From Eledone cirrhosa (Eukaryota): DNA of 64,000 nt. Within the stretch, counting starts at the first letter, position 1; each line of letters begins with the position of its first letter. Where the stretch lies: the NCBI GenBank assembly GCA_964016885.1, contig OZ024747.1, forward strand, positions 56,234,001-56,298,000, in the 5' to 3' direction. The notes beneath the pieces were generated by a model. That model saw only the letters and a list, made by a program, of their open reading frames with translations, was not told the DNA's origin and searched no databases. Both the position numbers and the translations under genes were made by a program. This document shows positions 6,951 through 61,410 of this stretch, one piece after another.

Positions 6951-7771
6951 CAGAGATGTGGGGCCACCATACCCTTTTCTCCATCTCTAGTCTAATGTTA
7001 CAACTATTATTCATAGTTGATAACTAATATTTTGGATCATTTGTGCATTGGTAAGACCTCACTTTCAGTCTCTAATTTTCCAATGATGATTATATATATA
7101 TATATATATATACAAATATAAATTAGCGATAATCGTATTTCGGCTATTGGAAATTAGCGAAAAACAACTTCCGAGATGTGTGGCAAGCGCTCCATAGAAG
7201 CTAGTGAACTAGAGCTACAACATAAGTTAAAAGGCCAAACACACTGAGATGATGGTTAAACCATTATCCGCACAGCCATAGAAACGACCAAGTAATTCGG
7301 GTCAAACAAATAAAATATGATTGAAAATTATACCCGGACCCCTGGATGGTTAGTAAAATCCAGCATTTGGGTTTCTGCAACTCCTAAATCAGGTACTGTC
7401 TGCTTAGACAAATAATGTTAAGCTTTCACTTTCTCAACAGGCTTTTAGTTCAAGTGCCAAACCAAGGATTGACCGTTATCAAAACCCACGTGGAGCTCGA
7501 TAAGGGGGGCAACCCTTAGTTTTGGCGGATGAATTCAGTATGTGTGTTATTATTGCAAATTGCAAAATATCACAAAACAAATTAAGTTCTCAACAGAATG
7601 GTTTTAAAATATATATATATATATATAAATTCAAAATATTAATAAATATAGACATTCATGTGATCAAATATATTTTATTATATATATTTCAGAGGTACTG
7701 TGCTGTTTCCTCACTACGTCCTCATCAGATAAAATAAATTGATGTCTGACATATCTCAACTGTGCTGATGG

Positions 7772-9833: not shown

Positions 9834-9895
9834 TATTCTATTATATATATTTTCAAGGGAACCAAAACTTTGGTACGCTCTCATCAGATAAAATA
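9834..9895 (-). ncRNA. Type I hammerhead ribozyme motif, family D
   Basis: TATTTTAT-CTGATGA-GAGCGTACCAAAGTTTTGGTTCCCTT-GAAA-ATATATA-TA-ATAGAATA; 8-bp helix I with one G-U. Confidence 0.7.
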
Positions 9896-10669: not shown

Positions 10670-12079
10670 AAGAGAGAGAGAGAGAGAGTCTGTGGTGGTG
10701 ACACCGGGCAGACCACTGATCATGATCATGGGATTCCTTGATACATGAGGAGATGCAGAGTGGGTAAAAGCATATGTAAAATCCCAACTGTGGTGCCAAA
10801 CAGTTTCGGCTAGTGTGTTCAGCAAGCCTTTTCAAGCATGTAGTCACACAAGCCAAAACTGCATGTCATTGTGGTCAAGACTTTACATATCTGCCTCAAC
10901 CCTCCCCCTTCACCCCTCCCCCTCACCCCTCTCTCTCTATATATATTTATCATGTAGGTGGCGCTACGAAAAGTACCCAGCACACACTGTAAATGTGGTT
11001 GGCATTAGAAAAAGCATCCAACCATAGAAAACCAGCCCCAAAACACCCAGCCCTCACTGTAAAGTGGACATGTAAAAGACATGGCAAAAAGCACCCAGCA
11101 CACACTGGCGCCAGAAAGGGCATACTGCCGTAGAAAACCATCAGAAACTCTCCTATATGAGCGAGACATGGTCACCCAACCCAACTTGCCTATAATTGGG
11201 GCACACCCGTCTAACTCTTGCTATAGGGGAAAATAGACATTAATCGACGTTGATGATGATGGTGATATATATATATATCATATATAGTGACACAAATTAG
11301 CTTGAGTTTACACATACAATAGTTCAAAGCCCCTCCACCATGCCCAGCACCATGGAAATAATGAAAGAATATAAATGACATTAAAATGAAAGGTGATATA
11401 GTGCTGCAGCTTACGACTCTAGGATGTTGATTGGGAATAAATGGTATCCTCATCATATAAATACATAAATACATACATATACACATACATATGTATGTGT
11501 CTGTATATATATATATATGTACACATATATGATTTTATATCATCATCATTGTTTTTGATGATCCTGAGAAAGATATATGGGTATATATATATATATATAT
11601 ATACATATATACACATATAATAAAAATAAATCATATACATATGTATATTATACATCATAAGAATCTCATGTATATATATATATATGATAATAATAATTGT
11701 TTCTACTTTTGGCACAAGGCCAGCAAATTTATCGACCCCGTAAGGATGAAAGGCAAAGTTAACCTCGGCGGGATTTGAACTCAGATCGTAAAGGGACGTA
11801 ACTATGCTGGATAATAATAATGGTTTCTTTATTAGCCTCAAATGTTTCTAATGTAGTCCCAAGACCAGTAACTTGGCGAGGGAGAAAGTCAATTAAAGCA
11901 ACCCCTGTACTGAATTATACTCAGTTTCATTGACCCCAGAAGGATCAAAGGCGAATTTGACCTTAGCACAATTTGAACTCAGAACCTAAAGAACTGTAAC
12001 AAATATTTTGTCTCATGCTCCAATGATTTTACCAGCAATCAGGGTTTTATTTATTGTGTTTGATAATTGTTTCTAACAT

Positions 12080-12425
12080 GGAGGCACATGGCTTAGTGGT
12101 TAGAGCATTGGCCTTGCAATCGAAAGGTTGTGAGTTCAATTCTCAGACCAGGTGATATGTTGTTTCCTTGAGCAAGACACTTTATTTCACATTGCTCCAG
12201 TTTACTCAGCTGTAGAAATGAGATGATAGGGACTGGGGTCCCTATCATTCCACTGCAAAGTGGTCGTGGAGGTGCCACGGCAAAAAAGCAGCCAGCACTC
12301 ACTGTAAATGAGGTTGGTGTTAGGAAGGGCATCCAGCTGTAGAAATCAAGCCAGAATCAGTTCCCGTCCCACCCTTGCAAGCAGGGAAAAAGCGGATGTA
12401 AAATGAAAATGAAATGAAATGATGA
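12080..12425 (+). mobile_element. tRNA-derived SINE family 2 with RTE-derived tail
   Basis: A box TGGCTTAGTGG, B box GAGTTCAATTC, core TCCTTGAGCAAGACACTT. 3' GTTGGTGTTAGGAAGGGCATCCAGC is shared with the RTE 3' UTR. Confidence 0.85.
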
Positions 12426-23139: not shown

Positions 23140-23409
23140 TATATAGACATATATACATATATAAAAATGTACGTCCATACATACATACAGGATACATATA
23201 CACATAATACATAGACATATGATACATACATACACACACAGACACATATATGACTCCTATTTCTACAACCACGTATAGATATGCTCACATATACCATTTA
23301 AAATACCAGTTATCCTTTTGGGCCACATGAGAGATTTCATATTATTTCCAGTTCTATATGTAGCAATGTTTCACTCCTAGATGCCCATATTGACACCAAC
23401 TATACATAT

Positions 23410-23719
23410 ATCATCATTTCATCATCATTTCATTTTACGTCCGCTTTTCCCTGCTTGCAAGGGTGGGACGAGAATTGATGCTGGCTTGATTTCTACAGCT
23501 GGATGCCCTTACAGTGAGTGCTGGGTGCTTTTTTTTCCGTGGCACCTCCACGACCACTTTGCAGTGGAATGATATGGACCTCAGTCCCTATCATCTCATT
23601 TCTACAGCTGAGTAAACTGGAGCAATGTGAAATAAAGTGTCTTGCTCAAGGAAACAACACATCACCCGGTCTGAGAATTGAACTCACAACCCTTTCGATT
23701 GCAAAGCCAATGCTCTAAC

Positions 23720-23720
<1 letters not shown>
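23410..23720 (-). mobile_element. SINE family 2
   Basis: Reverse complement of 12080-12425. Confidence 0.85.
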
Positions 23721-23784
<64 letters not shown>

Positions 23785-23826: not shown

Positions 23827-23882
23827 ACTGCTATATATATTTCGATGGTAGCCATTGAATGGCTATGACCTCATCAGGCAGT
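23827..23882 (-). ncRNA. Type I hammerhead ribozyme motif, family G
   Basis: ACTGC-CTGATGA-GGTCATAGCCA-TTCAA-TGGCTACCATC-GAAA-TATATA-TA-GCAGT then AATAAA; lies in element 23782-23945. Confidence 0.8.
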
Positions 23883-25679: not shown

Positions 25680-27560
25680 TCATCATCAAATCATCCTTTC
25701 TCATTTGTTTTTCCATACTTGCATGTGGTGGATGTGTCTTGTCCAGCACGCCATCCTTCCATTGCATTTCTTTGCTATCTGCATTGTGAGGTTCACTTCT
25801 TATTACCTTTGTCCAGGTACTTTTTAGTTTTCCTTTACTGCAGCTTCTTTTCACTAGCATGTCCTGGCATGTCTTCACCTAACAATCATCATCCATATAC
25901 ATTACATGTCCATATGACCACAGTACTCTCTTTTGCACATTACATTTGATTCCTCTTTTACACAGTTTCTTTCTGAATTCAACCATTTTTCAATTTTCAA
26001 CCATATTAACATCGCATATACATTGAAGCATTCTTGCTTCATTTCTCTCCATATCCTCTGTATTCACTGCCCATATCTCTCTACCATGCAGCATCACATT
26101 TCACACAATGGTATTATAGAGTAAGCCTTTCCTTCAGAGAGAGAAAACCCTCTGTTGTCAACTGGGGTAGTAACCCTTTACATTTCTTTCATCATGTTCT
26201 CTTTCTAGGGACTATATTTTCAGAGCAACCTCATCCTTGGCAAATTAGGTCACCTATTTAACAGAAACAATCAACTACTTCTGTGAAACCTTTTTGGATT
26301 GGGAACATTTTATTTAACTGATGTTCTTACTATTAATTATCCCTGTACATCTGACGCAATAAGGTTTTCTTTTACTGTTAGTTTACCTGCTATTTCACTA
26401 CACCTTTTATGTTTCTCTCATTTACATTACACAGTCACTTTTCCAAGAATGTGTGTGACAAAATATTTAATCCACACATACATGGAAAATAGAGTTTAAA
26501 TGTTTATGGTATCATTATCATTATCATATGCTCATTTGTCCATGCTTGCATGGGTTTTATGGATCTTTTCCAGCACGGCATCACTCGACTTTCATCATCA
26601 CCTCTGTGAGCTTCAATCATTTGAGATCAACTCTCACAACTTCCTTTGCTGGCAGCAGCTGTTCTCACAGACCTAGAAGAATGCATAAAATAATCTAGAG
26701 GTCCAAAAATTTAAAAGTGAGAACTATGGAATGAGGAAGGGGCAGGAAAGGAAAGTATTACATACTAGATGTATGCTTCAGCATGTACAAATAGGAAGGT
26801 AGGTCTTCTGTATTACTGCATAACACCAGAGATCTTGATCCTGTCTCATCGTCTTTGGGAGGTGTATCTTTGCAAGGTCCACTTCTATCACCTCATTACA
26901 AGTCTTCTTAGGTCTTCCTGCTCCATAACTTCCATCAAATTTGACTCTGCAACTTTTTCATGCAGCTGTCATCCTTCATACACATCACAAGTCCATACCA
27001 ACACAATATCCTCTCCTGCACACTGCATCTGATCCCTCATATGCTTAATTTCTCTCTCAGTTCATTTTTGCTGTGCCATTCTTGTATATTACTATTACAC
27101 ATCCATTGAAGCATGCCAGATTCACTTCTTTCCAGTCTTCACTGGTCCTCTACACACAGCACCCAGGTCTCACTACCATGTAATATTGCTGTTTGTATAC
27201 ATGAATCATAACATCTACCCTTCAATGTGAGGGAAAAACCTTTTCATAGTTAGCAGTGGATGTGGATACCTGAACTTATATCATTGCATCCTCAATCTGG
27301 CTACAGTACCATCTGCATAATCATTTACATCGCTATTTTGGTCACCCAAGTAACAGATGCTATCAACTGCTTCTGTGAAACCTTCCAAGAATTTGATAGC
27401 ACTTGTTCCCTGCGAGTGTTTGTTGCTTACAGCTTCTGTGCAATAGCCACAGATAAAACCTATATTCTTAGCTAACCTACCTAAGATCACACTACATAAT
27501 TTGTGTACCCATAGCATACATTTGGGTGAAAAGATGGAATTTCTACTCACCCCTTTCCTT
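25680..27560 (-). mobile_element. Fragmented decayed RTE LINE copies
   Basis: Peptides RNSIFSPKCMLWVHKLCS, ICYLGDQ and KSTWTKVIRSE match the 49.9 kb RTE ORF; interrupted. Confidence 0.7.
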
Positions 27561-29816: not shown

Positions 29817-29846
<30 letters not shown>

Positions 29847-29848
<2 letters not shown>

Positions 29849-30368
29849 AAATACGTATTTAAGAAAGCCACAACAATGCAAAGGGAAATCTCGAGGTAGG
29901 AAGTGAAATATAGATAGGAAAAACAGGTGAAAGTGAAAATTGAGAGAGACAAAGATGAAAACAAAACAAAGGTAGAAGGGTTACCGTAGTAGAGATTTAA
30001 TCCCAATATTTCGGGCTCACGCCCATCAACGGGGGAAAAGTTCCAAAAGGGGGGAAACAGGCCAAGCGGAGAAAGTTGTGATGTCTTAACGACATCACAA
30101 CTTTCTCCGCTTGGCCTGTTTCCCCCCTTTTGGAACTTTTCCCCCGTTGATGGGCGTGAGCCCGAAATATTGGGATTAAATCTCTACTACGGTAACCCTT
30201 CTACCTTTGTTTTGTTTTCATCTTTGTCTCTCTCAATTTTCACTTTCACCTGTTTTTCCTATCTATATTTCACTTCCTACCTCGAGATTTCCCTTTGCAT
30301 TGTTGTGGCTTTCTTAAATACGTATTTTACACATTTCACAATGCTTCAAGCAAACTTTAACACCCTCT

Positions 30369-30410: not shown

Positions 30411-30873
30411 TATTGGTAAAAGGAAAATAAAATGCTGACAAATTGTTCCCAGTGAAAAATAGTTTAATTAGGAATAAGTAAAAATTAGTAATAGTATCGG
30501 TTAGTATTCAGTTTTGGCTTTAAGTTTTTACCGGTTGCGCATTTCTAATGCTTTTCAAAAATAATTTTGAGATAGAGCGCCCGTGATGTTTGCTCTAATC
30601 TAAAATAAATTTGAGATAGAGCGTCCATGATGTTTGCTCTAATCTACAGATTAGAGCAAACATCACGGGCGCTCTATCTCAAATTTATTTTTGAAAAGCA
30701 TTAGAAATGCGCAACCGGTAAAATTTAAAACCAAAACTGAATACTAACCAATACTATTACTAATTTTTACTTATTCCTAATTAAACTATTTTTCACTGGG
30801 AACAATTTGTCAGCATTTTATTTTTATTTTACCAATATATCATAATTCGTGTGTTACACCTCTATTCTTTTAA

Positions 30874-40562: not shown

Positions 40563-40925
40563 ATTAGAAAGCGAGGTTTTTTTACAAAATGAAAAAAAAC
40601 CGAGGTGTCCTACACAAGTGAAAGTATAAAGAAAAAAAGATGAAATCGAAAATGAAACTGGAGTCTTATTTAAAAAAAAATATATATATTTATTTGGTTC
40701 CTTTACCGGTTTTCGCAGTTCTTCTGCTTTTCAAAAGTAGAGTTGAGATGGAGGGTCTGTGGTTTTTCTCACATCAGATGTGAGAAAAACCACAGACCCT
40801 CCATCTCAACTCTACTTTTGAAAAGCAGAAGAACTGCGAAAACCGGTAAAGGAACCAAATAAATATATATATTTTTTTTTAAATAAGACTCCAGTTGCAT
40901 TTTCAATTTCATCTTTTTTTCTTTA
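40563..40925 (-). mobile_element. HHR element family J, palindrome plus tail
   Basis: 149-nt arms around position 40776 with about 2 mismatches. Tail 40563-40626; (TA)n flanks. Confidence 0.8.
40815..40851 (+). ncRNA. Hammerhead motif with U3-A8 covariation, family J
   Basis: CTT-TTGAAAA-GCAG-AAGAA-CTGC-GAAA-ACCGG-TA-AAG, then AATAAA at 40858. Mirror copy at 40701-40737. Confidence 0.65.
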
Positions 40926-40940
40926 AATATATATATATAT

Positions 40941-41290
40941 GGAGGCATATATATGGAGCATTGGCCTTGCAATCGAAAGGTTGTGAGTTCAATTGTCAGA
41001 CCGGGTGATGTGTTGTTTCCTTGCGCAAGACACTTTATTTCACATTGCTCCAGTTTACTCAGCTGTAGAAATGAGATGATAGGGACTGGGGTCCCTATCA
41101 TTCCACTGTAAAGTGGTCGTGGAGGTGCTACGGCAAAAAAAGCACCCAGCACTCACTGTAAATGAGGTTGGTGCTAAGAAGGGCATCTAGCTGTAGAAAT
41201 CAGGCCAGAATCTGTTCCCGTCCCACCCTTGCAAGCAGGGAAAAAGTGGACGTAAAATTAAATGATGATGATGATGATGATGATGATGAT
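40941..41290 (+). mobile_element. SINE family 2
   Basis: Matches 12080-12425; ends in (GAT)n. Confidence 0.85.
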
Positions 41291-48133: not shown

Positions 48134-48320
48134 ATATAGATGAGATTCTACAGGACTAGAAATGTTTCATTCTTTAGAAATCATCAGATTCCTGATGATT
48201 TCTAAAAAATGAAACAGTTCTAGTACTGTAGAATCTCATCTATATTAAAACTTTTATACTCTGCAATGTATTGAGTACCTTACTTACTGTGGTTACCTTC
48301 GATTCAACCCGGAATAACGT
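48134..48320 (+). mobile_element. HHR element family C, fold-back with CTGATGA on both arms
   Basis: Palindrome 48134-48245. CTGATGA-TTTCTAAA(A/G)AAT-GAAA-CAGTTCTAG-T(A/C), then ATTAAA and GTATTGAGTAC. Confidence 0.75.
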
Positions 48321-48333
48321 ATATATATATATA

Positions 48334-48688
48334 TATTGGTAAACGGAATAGAAAATGCTGACAAATTGTTCACAGTGAAAAATAGTTTAATTAGGAATAA
48401 ATGAGAATTAGTAATTGTATTGGTTAGTAATCAGTTTTGATTTTAAGTTTTACCGGTTGCGCATTTCTAAATGCTTTTCAAAAATAATTTTGAGATAGAG
48501 CGTCCATTTGAAAAGCATTTAGAAATGCGCAACCGGTAAAACTTAAAATCAAAACTGATTACTAACCAATACAATTACTAATTCTCATTTATTCCTAATT
48601 AAACTATTTTTCACTGTGAACAATTTGTCAGCATTTTCTATTCCGTTTACCAATATATAATAACTTGTGTGTTACACCTCTATTCTTT

Positions 48689-48693
<5 letters not shown>
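48334..48693 (+). mobile_element. HHR element family I, fold-back plus tail
   Basis: Palindrome 48334-48655; tail 48660-48693. Variant cores at 48448-48484 (-) and 48508-48541 (+). Confidence 0.8.
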
Positions 48694-49392: not shown

Positions 49393-51517
49393 ATCATCAT
49401 CATCATTTAACGTCCATCTTCCATGCTTGCATGGGTTTGGACGGGAGTTTTCCCACTTGAGGCAAGATTGGTTGTTCTGCTCATATAGGACTGTCTGGCG
49501 GGTTTTCTATGGCTGGATGCCCTTCCTAACACCAACCACGTGTACAGTGTGGACTGGGAGGTTTTTACCGTGTTACCTACACGGCCACATTACAGCATGG
49601 AGTGTGTGTTTTTTTGTCATGACACCTACACGTCTGGCGGGTTTTCTACGGCTAGGTGCCCTTCCTAACACCAACCACGTTTACAGTGTGGACTGGGAGG
49701 TTTTTACCGTGTTACCTCCACGGCCACATTACAGCGTGGACTTTGTGTTTTTTTGTTATGAAACCTACACGATCTCATTTGTTTCGGACTGGATGTTGTG
49801 GTATCAACATAACTTCACATTTAAGGGGATGGTGTAGATGGGGTGGGGGTAGTGGTACGGGGTGTATTTTTGTTAGAGGTGCCTACTGACTGTAGGTTTC
49901 GCTTTGTATTTAGGCAAGGCGGGTCTTCTGTATAACTGTGTAGCGCCAAAGATCTCGGTCCAGTGACATTGTCTTGGAGAGGTGTAAGTGTGTGAGGTCG
50001 GAATTTATCAAGTCGTCCCAGGTTTTTCTGGGTCTGCCTACTCCGTGGCTACCGTCTATTTTTATTGCTTTGCACTTTTTTATACAGCTGTCGTCTTTCA
50101 TGCGCATCACGTGACCGTACCAACGTAGTCTTCTCTTGAGTAAACAACATCTGATCCCTCTTATTCCTAATTTCTCCCTTTGTTCGTTTATGCTTTGCCG
50201 TTCACGTATATTACTATTACACATCCAGCGGAGCATGCAAGCTTTGTTCCTCTCCAGTCTGCGTATATCCTCTGCACACAATGCCCAGGTCTCACTGCCA
50301 TGTAACTTTGCTGTTCGTATGCAGGCATCATACAGCCTGCCTTTCATTTTAAGAGAGAACCCTTTAGCAGCCAATAGTGGTATAAGCTCTCTGAACTTTT
50401 TCCATCCCGTTCTGACTCTAGCTACTGTACTTTCAGAGCACCCTCCCCCACTGCTGATTTTGTCACCCAGGTAACGGAAGGTATCCACTCTTTCTATAGA
50501 ACCATCTGTGCAATGGAATGAGCTAGTATTCTGTGGGCACTTGCTGCTACTTATTGCACCAGAGCACCAGCCACATATAAAATCTATATTCTTAGTTAGC
50601 TTACCTGTGATCCCACTACATCTTTTATGCACCCATTCTTTGCATTTGAGACATAAAATGGAGTTTCTGCCTACTCCTTTCCTACACACTGAGCATGGCC
50701 ATTTCCCAGATGGGACCGGTGCCCTATTTTCCTTCCTACAAACTAGAACTTTAGTCTTAGACAAGTTAACTTTAAGGCCTTTTGATTCTAGGCCATGCTT
50801 CCATGTTTGGAATTTCTTCTCTAGTGCAGCCATTGATTCAGCTATGAACGTTAGATCATCTGCATATAGGAGTTTCCATGGGCAGCAGGTCTTGAACTCC
50901 TCTGTTATAGCCTGAAGGGCAATAATAAATAGTAGGGGGCTAAGAACGGAGCCCTGATGAACACCAACTTTTACGCTAAACTAAACTCTTCACTATATTT
51001 GTTGTAAATTCTAACCTTGCTGACTGTTTCTTTATACTTGGCTTGTATAGCTCTCACAAGCCATTCATCAACACCTAGTTTTCTAAGAGCCCACCAGATA
51101 ATGGAGTGGGGGACTCTGTCAAAGGCTTTCTCCAAGTCATCAAAAGTTAAGTATAGGGGTTTACTTTTAGCTAGGTACTTCTCCTGTAGTTATCATACAA
51201 TGAAAAGAGCGTCTGTGGTACTTTTACCTGGCACAAACCCGAACTGCATTTCATCTAGATCAATTCGTTCTCTGATTAGTTGCGCTATTACTTTTTCTGT
51301 GACCTTCATAACCTGGTCGATTAATTTAATGCCTCTATAGTTACCCCTATCTCCTTTACACTTGTAGCAGTTAATGATGATGCTGCTACGCCAGTCTTTC
51401 GGAACGGCCCCATTCTGTATGGCTTGGTTTACTATCCGGATGACCATAGTGTGTCCCACCATTCCAGATGCTTTCAGCATTTCAGCAACTATTTCCGAAG
51501 GCCCAGCCGCCTTACCC
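49393..51517 (-). mobile_element. RTE-clade LINE, 5'-truncated, frameshifted RT plus 3' UTR
   Basis: GKAAGPSEI, NYRGIKL, QFGFVPGKSTTDA, GVHQGSVLSP, YADD at 50855-50866, FRYLG and RRLRWYGHVMR; stop at 49910. 3' UTR has a ~140-nt duplication and a (GAT)n tail. Confidence 0.92.
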
Positions 51518-52997: not shown

Positions 52998-53263
52998 AAT
53001 AAACCTTTTAAGGAATTACACCAGTCCATCCTCCTGTTATTTTATAATAATTAACCCCGTCCTCGCACCACCAACAACACAAACAAAGACGGGTGAGTTG
53101 CATTACGTCGAGTGCTCTCCCTAATAATACAACAAGGTTAACTATATGGAATGACCAGTTCTATCCAGCAAACCTAAATATATATATATCATCATCATGA
53201 TATATATATATATTTAGGTTTGTTGGTTCACCACTGGATAGAACTGGTCATTCCGTATATATA

Positions 53264-54307
53264 TGGAGGCACATGGCTTAGTGGTTAGAACATTGGCCTT
53301 GCAATCAAAAGTTTGTGAGTTCAATTCTCAGACCGGGTGATGTGTTGTTTCCTTGAGCAAGACACTTTATTTCACATTGCTCCAGTTTACTCAGCTGTAG
53401 AAATGAAATGATAGGGACTGGGGTCCATATCATTTCACTGCAAAGTGGACGTGGAGGTGCCACAGCAAAAAAGCAGCCAGCACTCACTGTAAATGAGGTT
53501 GGTGTTAGGAAGGGCATCCAGCTGTAGAAATCAAGCCAGAATCAGTTCCCGTCCCACCCTTGAAAGCAGGGAAAAAGCTGACGTAAAATGATGATGATGA
53601 TGATGATATATATATATATATGTATATATTCATGTGTATGTATATGTATATATATATGTATATATATATATATATATATGTATGTACGTATGTATAGAAT
53701 AAGGAAATACAAAGTTTAGATGATAAGTCCATGATACATATTTTGATGATGACAGTGACTACATGGTTCGACATAGTAACCAGTGCCATGGTCTCATTTG
53801 ACAGTATCTTACATAATAAGGTTACAATCAAGGAGGTAATCCAGAATTGAAGTGACAAGGGAACAGACAAACAGTGATGTTCATGAATAAAATGCCTGTT
53901 CCCTTGTATATATATATATATATATATACAGAGCATTGGCCTTGCAATCGAAAGGTTGTGAGTTCAATTCTCAGACCGGGTGATGTGTTGTTTCCTTGAG
54001 CAAGACACTTTATTTCACATTGCTCCAGTTTACTCAGCTGTAGAAATGAGATGATAGGGACTGGGGTCCCTATCATTCCACTGCAAAGTGGTTGTGGAGG
54101 CGACACAGCAAAAAAGCACCCAGTACTCACTGTAAAGTGGACGTGTAGGCACCACGGATAAAAAGCACCCAGCACTCACTGTAAATGAGGTTGGTGTTAG
54201 GAAGGGCATCCAGCTGTAGAAATCAAGCCAGAATCAGTTCCCGTCCCACCCTTGCAAGCAGGGAAAAGCAGACGTAAAATGATGATGATGATGATGATGA
54301 TGATGAT
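53264..54307 (+). mobile_element. Two SINE family 2 copies (53264-53605 and 53930-54307)
   Basis: Both match 12080-12425. Confidence 0.85.
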
Positions 54308-58279: not shown

Positions 58280-60102
58280 ATATTTTAAAAAAAGCACATG
58301 AATTACATCCTTGTCAGAGTGCATGACAGATGGGATGTACAGTATGTTCGTTTTCTTTGTGGGGCTGAGTGTTGGATGGATCACTGTCTGGTGCGTGCAA
58401 AAGTGAAATTAATTACAAAACGTAAAATCTGGACTGCAAGTGTTACCCTGCCTAAAAGACTAAATGCTGCTCGTCTTAGGGATAATAGTGTGAAGAGGAC
58501 ATTGCAAAAAGAATTGAATGTTGCAGATATTGGTAAGGAATGGCTGACCCTTAAAAGGTCGTTTTATGATATAGGAAGCGTGTTCTGGGATTGGTGCAGA
58601 GAAAGCATCAAGACTGGTTTAAAGAAAATGATGAACATATAAATAAATTGTTGGCTGATAAGAGGCGTGCTCTGTCATGCTACTTGGCAGCAAAGCCACA
58701 GGAGAAGAATATGTTGCATAAGGAACTCGAGGATGCGAAATCACGTATGAAGGATAAGTGGTGGAGTGAGAAGGCTGATGAGATACAAGCTGCATCAGAT
58801 TCCAATAAAACAAAGCTGTTGTACAATCTCTTGCATGAAGTTTATGGACCATCTTGTTCTCTGGTGACACCGCTTCACAGCAGGGATGGCAAGGAACTTT
58901 TTTGTGATTCACAGGGAACTCTGCAAAGGTGGCGAGAGCACTTTAATGAACTTTTGAATCAGCTGTCTGTCGTCAATGAAGATTTCCTCAATCTAATCCC
59001 TGAGAAACCTATGAAAGTAGCTCTCGCAGAACCACCAACATTAGAGGAAGTTGCAGTAGCTGTCTTGAAGCTGAACAGTGGAGGTCTTGCAGGCATAAAG
59101 AAGAGAAGAGAGCACACATGCCTTATATGCCTCTACCTTTGTCTTCTTCTATATGTCTTGCCAACCCCTGAGGCGCCTTTCTAGCTTTCCGAAAGCATCA
59201 CTTACATTCCTAATCCTGTGTGGAATTTTATAATCAAGATTGCTGTATTGGTTGACAGTGCTTCCCAGGTAGACAAACTGATCAACCACTCCAAGTCGTT
59301 TACCATACACATAGATATTTGGTTTATTGTACTGCTTACAAGGGGCAGGATGGTACATGACAATGGTTTTCTTGAGTCTGACAGTCAATCCTAAGGCAGT
59401 GCAAGTATCAGAAAATGCATTCAAAATGTGTTGCATATCAATCTCTGAGTTTGCTACAAGATCACAATCATCCGCATACAAAAGGTCTCTTATGATAGTG
59501 GTAAGCAGTACACTGAACCAAATATCTATGTGTATGGTAAACGACTTGGAGTGGTTGATCAGTTTGTCTACCTGGGAAGAACTGCCAATCAATACAGCAA
59601 TCTTGATTATAAAATTCCACACAGGATTAGGAAAGTAAGTGATGCTTTCGGAAAGCTAGAAAGGCGCCTCAGGGGTTGGCAAGACATATAGAAGAAGACA
59701 AAGGTAGAGGCATACAAGGCATGTGTGCTCTCTTCTCTTCTTTATGCCTGCAAGACCTCGGTCACATATCGACACCACCTTAAACAGTTGGAATGTTTCC
59801 ACCAGATGTGTCTCAGATGAATCCATGGCGTTCACTGGAGGGACCACATCAGTGATGTTGAGATTTTGGAAGGCTCTCTGTGTGAAAGCATAGAAGCTCT
59901 TGTGCTTAATCAAAGACTCCAAAGGAGTGGTCAACTTGCCAGGATGAAGGATTCTAGGATACCAATACAACTCTTTTATGGAGAGTTAGTTAAAGGAAAA
60001 CAACCTCCACATAAACTGAAAAAGAGGTGTAAGGATTCATTTAAAGCCTCCTTGAAAGACGTTAACATCTCTACTGATACATGGGAAAGCATAGCTGCTG
60101 AT
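58280..60102 (+). mobile_element. Second RTE-clade LINE, rearranged with internal inversion
   Basis: Endonuclease end (NYILVR..GAECWMDHCLVR), linker (RKHQDWF, RWREHFNELLN), inverted RT segment with YADD at 59467-59478 (-), and C-terminus RMKDSRIPIQLFYGEL. Confidence 0.88.
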
Positions 60103-60640: not shown

Positions 60641-61044
60641 TATTACATTGAAAATAAGACCAAATACTGTTAATTATAACATATTTTAATTAACACATGT
60701 TCCTTCATTCATTTGTCATATTAAATAGAAGCTAAATAAAAGTATTTTAACTTACCCGATGCTCCAATGTTTTTTTACAGATTTTATATTGAAATCTAGT
60801 ATTTAGCCTCTATTTAAGATGGTAACTGTCATCAGAGGTTGTTCAGTCCAATGGTAAGGAGCATTCTGCTGGAATTTCTGTTTATTGTCAGTCCGTAGAC
60901 TTATGTCTTAGATCCCAATATATCCTAATTTATATGAATATATTTTGAGCCCATTTTGATAAAAAATCCCTTGCTAAAACTATATGGTCTGTACCCTGTG
61001 GTGTACATAAATTTTGTGTTTCCAGCTATATATATATATATATA

Positions 61045-61228
61045 TATTGGTAAAAGGAAAAGAAAATGCTGACAAATTGTTCCCAGTGAAAAATAGTTTA
61101 ATTAGGAATAAGTAAAAATTAGTAATAAGTATTGGTTAGTATTCACTTTTGGTTTTAAGTTTTTACCGGTTGCACATTTCTAATGCTTTTCAAAAATAAT
61201 TTTGAGATAGAGTGCCCGTGATGTTTGC

Positions 61229-61234
<6 letters not shown>
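61045..61234 (-). mobile_element. HHR element family I, solo tail-less copy
   Basis: Equals the left arm of 30411-30600. Variant core at 61161-61196. Confidence 0.8.
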
Positions 61235-61313
<79 letters not shown>

Positions 61314-61354: not shown

Positions 61355-61410
61355 ACTGCTATATATATTTCGATGATAGCCATTGAATGGCTATGACCTC
61401 ATCAGGCAGT
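61355..61410 (-). ncRNA. Type I hammerhead ribozyme motif, family G
   Basis: ACTGC-CTGATGA-GGTCATAGCCA-TTCAA-TGGCTATCATC-GAAA-TATATA-TA-GCAGT; lies in element 61310-61474. Confidence 0.8.

What the first reader, a model, noticed from the sequence alone, without database searches (positions are those of the whole stretch)
30688..30723. Family I: hammerhead-like core with U3-A8 and fixed A13C
All five arms (30525, 30688, 48448, 48508, 61161) read UUGAAAA-helix II-GCAA-CCGG-UA. A13 is normally invariant, yet C is present at all three loci, while helix II tolerates a loop insertion and a G-U. Helix I is only about 3 A-U pairs, so the call is tentative. It shares UUGAAAA-GCA..UGC-G.AA-CCGG-UA with family J.
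Basis: partly seen in the sequence, partly recalled or inferred. Interest (0 to 1): 0.7.

Follow-up and report, generated by a model that had tools for sequence, protein, structure and literature searches.

The report
Penelope hammerhead with fixed A13C core
The motif is a tiny hammerhead-shaped RNA at the end of a Penelope-type jumping gene that spread to over 10,000 copies with a normally invariant core base changed (A13 to C), and a small excess of copies that start exactly at the predicted cut site suggests its RNA is likely still cut now and then.

Summary
Observation confirmed. The five arms are end pieces (pseudo-LTR) of a young Penelope-like retroelement with RT, Zn-linker and GIY-YIG domains. 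Exact cores number over 10,000 in this genome: 3,972 have C13 against 74 others in one subfamily, and 98 of 100 listed have C13 in a second. Relatives J and K (about 50% and 70% protein identity) share U3-A8 and ACCGGU-A but keep A13, so C13 is derived and inherited, not repeatedly selected. U3-A8 is published; a natural fixed A13C was not found in my searches, though Lünse 2017 could not be read. Most short copies start about 73 nt upstream of the cut site, a likely transcription start, so uncut RNA is the main template. Yet 5' junctions pile up at the predicted scissile bond: 18 of 62, and 15 versus 2 at a same-sequence control site (p about 0.001). Best reading: a weak, dimer-dependent ribozyme that tolerates A13C. 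Rivals: cutting in trans by A13-bearing family J, or a dead motif with an RT stop. No cleavage assay or RNA data. The scan noted similar cut-site footprints in another genome.

The parts
30691..30720 (+). Minimal type-I hammerhead core: U3-U4-G5-A6-A7-A8-A9, helix II GCAUU/AGA/AAUGC, G12-C13-A14, palindromic helix III ACCGGU, A17
30688..30690 (+). Helix I 5' strand (UUU); also part of a competing upstream hairpin that is predicted to sequester U3-A6
30721..30723 (+). Helix I 3' strand (AAA); predicted scissile bond lies between 30720 and 30721 (position 0)
   Evidence: hammerhead numbering (PMC3088659); junction peak
30647..30652 (+). CAGATT at about -73: hot spot of 5' ends of copies, likely transcription start (initiator-like; consensus recalled)
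   Evidence: 24 of 79 copies start at -79..-65
30648..30873 (+). Right arm: pseudo-LTR piece from the likely transcription start to the long 3' end with tail, then (TA)n
30836..30873 (+). About 37-nt Penelope-type tail, present on one arm only
   Evidence: two 3' ends at 2597 and 2634 of L067
30411..30602 (-). Left (inverted) arm, short 3' end in (TA)n; core at 30529-30558
30603..30646 (-). Extra short inverted copy of the element's 5' end at the centre of the palindrome
48334..48505 (-). Subfamily Ib inverted arm (4-nt loop II), core 48451-48481
48507..48691 (+). Subfamily Ib arm with tail, core 48508-48538, truncated one base before U3
61041..61235 (-). Solo arm in (TA)n, core 61164-61193 with C11.1>U
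40818..40848 (+). Family J core (related element, A13); inverted partner at 40704-40734

Best explanation
The motif is the minimal type-I hammerhead in the pseudo-LTR of a young Penelope-like retroelement whose master lineage fixed A13C, and it likely still cleaves its RNA after A17, rarely, as a dimer predicted to pair through ACCGGU. Shown: the element (pLTR-ORF-pLTR with inverted 5' arm, RT, CX4CxxC linker, GIY-YIG), more than 10,000 cores, C13 fixed in all five subfamilies, A13 in both relatives, a main 5'-end hot spot at about -73 and a small 5'-end peak at the predicted cut site. Inferred: transcription starts near -73; RT primes at nicked (TA)n from two sites 37 nt apart upstream of the ORF and mostly copies uncut RNA to its 5' end, then folds back or jumps, which gives the window's palindromes; cutting is not needed for spread, so a 10-100-fold slower core is tolerated; the few cut RNAs leave copies that start at position 0; the element's protein would assist folding, as reported for the anole element.
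For: Element: L067 has inverted core at 1645, core at 2448, ORF from about 2660, core at 7353; GIY-YIG PF01541 E 2e-7, above cutoff; RVT_1 E 8.7e-7, just under cutoff. C13 fixed: 3,972 vs 74; 98 of 100 listed among 6,212; non-C copies scattered on the tree. A13 in J (first 100 of 11,601), K and the other families in a 664-kb sample. Compensatory differences between I and J in helix II and helix I. No substitution at 10% or more in the 30-nt core vs 19 of 163 flank positions among 147 copies (p about 0.02 by hand). Junctions: 18 of 62 at position 0 vs 2, 2, 1 at +1..+3; 15 vs 2 at the same-context site +7 among 74 (p 0.0012). J shows the same peak (10 of first 30).
Against: No cleavage assay. 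Helix I is 3 A-U pairs; the active junction lies 4.5 kcal/mol above the dimer MFE with 4-nt flanks and about 10-11 with the upstream hairpin, against 1.3-2.4 for J. A13 changes cost 10-100-fold in minimal hammerheads (as cited in PMC4075628). The peak is small (18 junctions against more than 10,000 arms), is not significant in (TA)n-flanked copies alone (5 vs 2, p 0.23), and includes junctions with 1-3 nt microhomology. The two search sets overlap. Copies that start at 0 have lost the core, so their own base 13 is unseen. No helix covariation within family I. PMC11167929 found no RNA reads starting or ending at the cut site of another element.
Confidence: 0.52

Rival explanations
1. Family I RNA is a substrate only. 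Its C13 core is dead, but it pairs through the shared ACCGGU with RNA of family J (or rare A13 copies of I), which supplies G12-A13-A14 and cuts it in trans.
For: In a dimeric hammerhead the cut strand gives only U16.1, N17 and the 3' strand of helix I (from the structure in PMC4209133). I, J and K share ACCGGU-A. A J-enzyme/I-substrate junction scores -12.7 kcal/mol against -11.8 for I/I. J has 11,601 cores.
Against: Only 2 bp of helix I form in J/I, and J/J is far more stable (-20.1). It does not explain why U3-A9 and helix II stay unchanged across I subfamilies. Co-expression is not shown.
Confidence: 0.17
2. The motif is a dead or nearly dead hammerhead carried along by a successful element; the peak at position 0 is an RT stop next to the ACCGGU duplex or a bound protein, or a junction-sequence bias.
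For: A13C, a 3-bp helix I and a competing hairpin. Family K is also degenerate, with U.U at 10.1-11.1 and helix I of 2 bp. Hammerhead mutants do not block insertion in vitro (PMC11167929) and Naiad elements thrive without hammerheads (PMC8557442). The family is young, so core constraint is weakly tested.
Against: The peak falls on the scissile bond, not at -1 (4 of 62) or +3 where a duplex or helix I would stop RT; the same-sequence control site lacks it.
Confidence: 0.26
3. The hairpin plus palindrome is kept as a binding or dimerisation signal for the element's protein, and the hammerhead look is ancestral residue in all three families.
For: GCA..UGC and ACCGGU-A persist over 50% protein divergence while helix I, position 13 and pair 10.1-11.1 vary.
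Against: U3-A8, G5, A6, A9, G12, A14 and UH are also kept; J folds as a hammerhead at MFE and shows the same junction peak.
Confidence: 0.05

Closest known systems
Minimal hammerheads of metazoan Penelope-like elements, including the U3-A8 variant of Schistosoma mansoni Cercyon (Cervera and de la Pena 2014, PMC4209133)
   Same: Type I, in pseudo-LTRs, short palindromic helix III, U3-A8, mostly solo or inverted truncated copies, predicted dimer activity.
   Different: C at 13; no extra base between 9 and 10.1; 4-nt CCGG insert; helix I of 3 A-U pairs. The paper's descriptor demands cuganga and gaaannuh and would miss it.
Natural core variants of Perreault et al. 2011 (PMC3088659): U3-A8, A6C, A6a, U13a insertion, U15.1-A16.1, U10.1-U11.1
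   Same: Natural departures from the core with low but detectable activity.
   Different: No substitution at 13 in the section read; those are rare single examples, this is fixed in more than 10,000 copies. Figures 5, S6 and S7 were not visible.
Anole Poseidon element PAc (Frangieh et al. 2024, PMC11167929)
   Same: Two RT start sites that define the tail, AT-rich targets, uncut RNA as main template.
   Different: Canonical C3-G8 core overlapping the ORF start; here the core lies about 180 nt upstream of the ATG, and copies record 5' ends at the cut site.
Neptune/Nematis-type EN+ Penelope-like elements (Craig et al. 2021, PMC8557442)
   Same: C-terminal GIY-YIG, CX2-5CxxC linker, tandem and inverted pLTRs, tail, microsatellite targets.
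   Different: About 430-aa N-terminal region without Pfam match; clade not placed on a tree.

Membership tests
Hammerhead ribozyme (type I, minimal) | 3-8 Watson-Crick pair with U4, G5, A6, A9 | tested here: met
   U3-A8 in all arms; natural and active per PMC3088659
Hammerhead ribozyme (type I, minimal) | G12-A13-A14 | tested here: not met
   G12-C13-A14 in 3,972 of 4,046 and 98 of 100
Hammerhead ribozyme (type I, minimal) | A15.1-U16.1 and H17 with helix III (by dimer) | tested here: met
   ACCGGU duplex forms in the dimer MFE
Hammerhead ribozyme (type I, minimal) | Helix II with G10.1-C11.1 | tested here: met
   5 bp, in MFE at most flank lengths; one pair differs compensatorily in J
Hammerhead ribozyme (type I, minimal) | Stable helix I | tested here: inconclusive
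   3 A-U pairs, not in the MFE; 4 bp in J
Hammerhead ribozyme (type I, minimal) | Match to an Rfam hammerhead model | tested here: inconclusive
   None among the best 150 of 560 rows shown; 410 rows not seen
Hammerhead ribozyme (type I, minimal) | Self-cleavage after N17 | not testable with these tools
   Indirect only: junction peak at position 0
EN+ Penelope-like element | Single ORF with RT and C-terminal GIY-YIG | tested here: met
   the copies seen carry frameshifts or stops
EN+ Penelope-like element | pLTRs in tandem, inverted 5' arm, 30-40 nt tail | tested here: met
   L067; window arms
Neptune clade | CX2-5CxxC linker between RT and EN; (TA)n targets | tested here: met
   CDRPNCGIC before GIY-YIG; flanks. 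Shared with Nematis.
Neptune clade | RT phylogenetic placement with reference Neptune elements | not tested
   No reference set in session
Non-LTR retrozyme | Non-coding head-to-tail tandem units each with a hammerhead | tested here: not met
   Copies are solo, inverted or flank a coding ORF

The most novel reading that the evidence does not exclude
A natural hammerhead with U3-A8 plus A13C cleaves in vivo, so A13 is not obligatory when the ribozyme works as a protein-assisted dimer; or, more unusual, the C13 family has become a substrate cut in trans by a sister retroelement's ribozyme through a shared palindrome. In either case retrocopy 5' junctions serve as a genomic read-out of ribozyme activity.
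Probability: 0.45. Interest if true: 0.72.

Novelty: new variant of a known kind. Interest (0 to 1): 0.5.

Why it matters
What hammerheads do in Penelope-like elements is open: they cut poorly in vitro and are dispensable for insertion in one assay. Here three related families give a natural series (intact J, A13C in I, U.U and weak helix I in K) that all amplified, which argues that little cutting is needed. The junction peak offers genomic evidence that some cutting occurs, even in the A13C family. It also shows that descriptors requiring GAAA miss a family of more than 10,000 copies.

Tried and rejected
Rfam scan: only microRNA-hairpin and repeat noise in the rows shown. RNA runs: no RNA holder listed; runs X1 and X4 are contigs of unrecorded kind, useful only for the two 3' ends and the much greater depth of the pLTR than the ORF. 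A hidden A13 subfamily of I: rejected, 12 A13 copies need 8 changes on the tree, although some cluster. The -2 junction peak: rejected as evidence, it recurs at the control site (11 vs 9) and fits TA microhomology. An alternative fold made by C13 (UGCGCA palindrome or G5-C13 pairing): not seen, C13 and natural A13 copies give the same dimer MFE. A splice acceptor at -73: rejected, upstream flanks differ and ends spread over 15 nt. An A13-C17 to C13-A17 swap: recalled idea, no support in passages read, and J and K have A13 with A17. The one-mismatch count listed only perfect matches and gave no spectrum. Single-mutant data for position 13 were not found in the text of PMC9901934; its supplements were listed, not read. 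Lünse 2017, Nelson and Uhlenbeck 2008, Scott 2013 and Hammann 2012 were not held.

Full report
Observation. The five arms are at the stated places and read as described. The exact 30-mer occurs 3,972 times in the 3.0-Gb genome G000 and the reversed control 0 times. The arms form two head-to-head palindromes (30411-30873, 48334-48691) and one solo copy (61041-61235), all in (TA)n.

What the repeat is. Of 30 loci from a genome search, several continue upstream into coding sequence. L067 shows the full layout: inverted core, tandem core, an ORF starting 182 nt after the predicted cut site, and a 3' core. The protein has GIY-YIG at its C-terminus (PF01541, E 2e-7), RVT_1 just under the curated cutoff (E 8.7e-7) and a CX4CxxC linker. 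One arm of each palindrome has a 37-nt tail. These features match Neptune/Nematis-type Penelope-like elements as described in PMC8557442 (passages read). I did not place it on a tree.

Is C13 fixed? Yes. With the 3-nt loop, 3,972 cores have C and 74 do not (A 24, G 11, T 39, counted by eye). With the 4-nt loop there are 6,212 cores, and 98 of the first 100 listed have C. In a tree of 94 copies the 12 A13 copies need 8 changes, so they are mostly sporadic mutations. All five subfamilies of three or more copies among 184 keep C13. Among 147 of those copies (the 37 from loci picked for non-C13 left out), no core position has a substitution at 10% or more, against 19 of 163 flank positions (p about 0.02 by hand; one edge position dropped; the sample is not random).

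Polarity. Family K (69-71% protein identity) has U3-A8, A13, a U.U at 10.1-11.1 in most copies and ACCGGU-A. Family J (47-55%) has U3-A8 and A13 in all of the first 100 of 11,601 cores. In the window plus 60 fetched 10-kb stretches (664 kb), the other repeated hammerhead families have A13. So A13 is ancestral and C13 arose once. J differs from I by compensatory changes in helix II (U-A to G-C) and helix I (U-A to C-G), which supports a shared fold, on few families.

Folding. In J the monomer MFE contains helices I and II. In I, helix II forms but an upstream hairpin takes U3-A6. Two I strands pair through ACCGGU; closing helix I costs 4.5 kcal/mol, or about 10-11 with the hairpin, against 1.3-2.4 for J. 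Family I is therefore a poor ribozyme on paper even before A13C, which PMC4075628 (part 1 of 2 read) cites as a 10-100-fold loss.

Where copies start. Among copies picked by a downstream anchor, 24 of 79 in I and 26 of 60 in J start 61-79 nt upstream of the cut site at CAGAT. Ten pairs among the 100 listed Ib cores fold back at an identical spacing there. I infer a transcription start, so most templates were not cut. This agrees with PMC11167929 (parts 1-2 of 4 read), where hammerhead mutants insert normally and cleavage needs the protein.

Footprint at the cut site. I searched for copies that keep the downstream part and lack the core. In I, all 62 matches were classified by script with none dropped: 18 start at position 0, against 2, 2 and 1 at +1 to +3. 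A second search covering the same sequence context seven bases downstream (TA then AAAC) gave 15 at 0 and 2 at +7 among 74, while the microhomology class was even (11 vs 9) (binomial p 0.0012, Fisher 0.0016). The two sets overlap. The excess comes mainly from non-(TA)n flanks (10 vs 0; TA flanks 5 vs 2, p 0.23). Some junctions are exact, to fold-back or tandem template switches (L370, L421, L352, L355). J shows the peak too: 10 of the first 30 by script, and 18 of about 84 by eye after dropping internal deletions and duplications from the first 100 of 270. Per core the rate is about 0.2% in I and 0.4% in J, uncorrected for the flank filter. I designed this test before reading earlier scan notes; one of them reports the same kind of footprint in another genome.

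Mechanism and rivals. The simplest reading is rare cleavage after A17 by a dimer, likely protein-assisted, in an element that does not depend on it. But the cut strand of a dimer does not supply position 13, and a J-enzyme/I-substrate junction is as stable as I/I, so trans-cleavage is open. An RT stop beside the ACCGGU duplex cannot be excluded either, although it would be expected at -1.

Against print. U3-A8 minimal hammerheads in such elements are in PMC4209133 (parts 1-2 of 4 and supplement parts 1 and 3 of 3 read; the GAAA column of its alignment is lost in the text extraction). PMC3088659 (core-variation section and passages read; figures unseen) lists no substitution at 13. Searches for 'hammerhead ribozyme' + 'A13C' (0 papers), A13/C17/G12, core variants and GCAA gave no natural A13C in the listings. 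Lünse 2017, with its large set of variants, was not held; I saw only a review's summary, so prior report there cannot be excluded.

Verdict. A real, new variant of a known kind: works like a minimal dimeric hammerhead, fails the strict GAAA membership feature, and has indirect evidence of residual cutting. Interest 0.5.

Noticed in passing
L172-L200 (family K pLTR); L075:4748-4778: Sister family K has U3-A8, A13, a U.U (some U-A) at 10.1-11.1 and only 2 bp of helix I: a second degenerate hammerhead in the same lineage.
   Followed up: partly
window 23836-23877 (-), 61364-61405 (-), 7696-7728 (-), 20085 (+), 9846-9887 (-): Other repeat families with canonical C3-G8 cores, long helix II and a UAUAUA palindromic helix III.
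   Followed up: partly
window 40704-40848: Family J palindrome; both arms carry an extra A in GAAA, unlike the first 100 listed genomic J cores.
   Followed up: partly
G000:C1, listing: Ten Ib head-to-head pairs among 100 listed cores have exactly the same spacing (111), a stereotyped fold-back about 40 nt upstream of U3.
   Followed up: partly
L067:2660-3961: About 430-aa N-terminal region of the element's ORF has no Pfam match.
   Followed up: partly
window about 29820-30360: A large near-perfect palindrome centred near 30088 lies directly beside the family I locus, flanked by (TA)n.
   Followed up: no
window 48141-48237: Small palindrome with CUGAUGA...GAAA on both strands.
   Followed up: no
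window 26792-27559 and 49911-50683: Two 770-bp stretches 69% identical to each other, possibly old coding retroelement remnants.
   Followed up: no
window 12078-12385, 23401-23724, 40956-41258, 53263-53587, 53930-54278: A roughly 300-bp SINE-like family in five or more copies.
   Followed up: no
window 59081-59339 and 59501-59759: 259-bp inverted repeat at 97% identity around a 160-bp spacer.
   Followed up: no
L007/L069, L011/L077: Another U3-A8 family with A13 and a 10-nt palindromic helix III insert.
   Followed up: no
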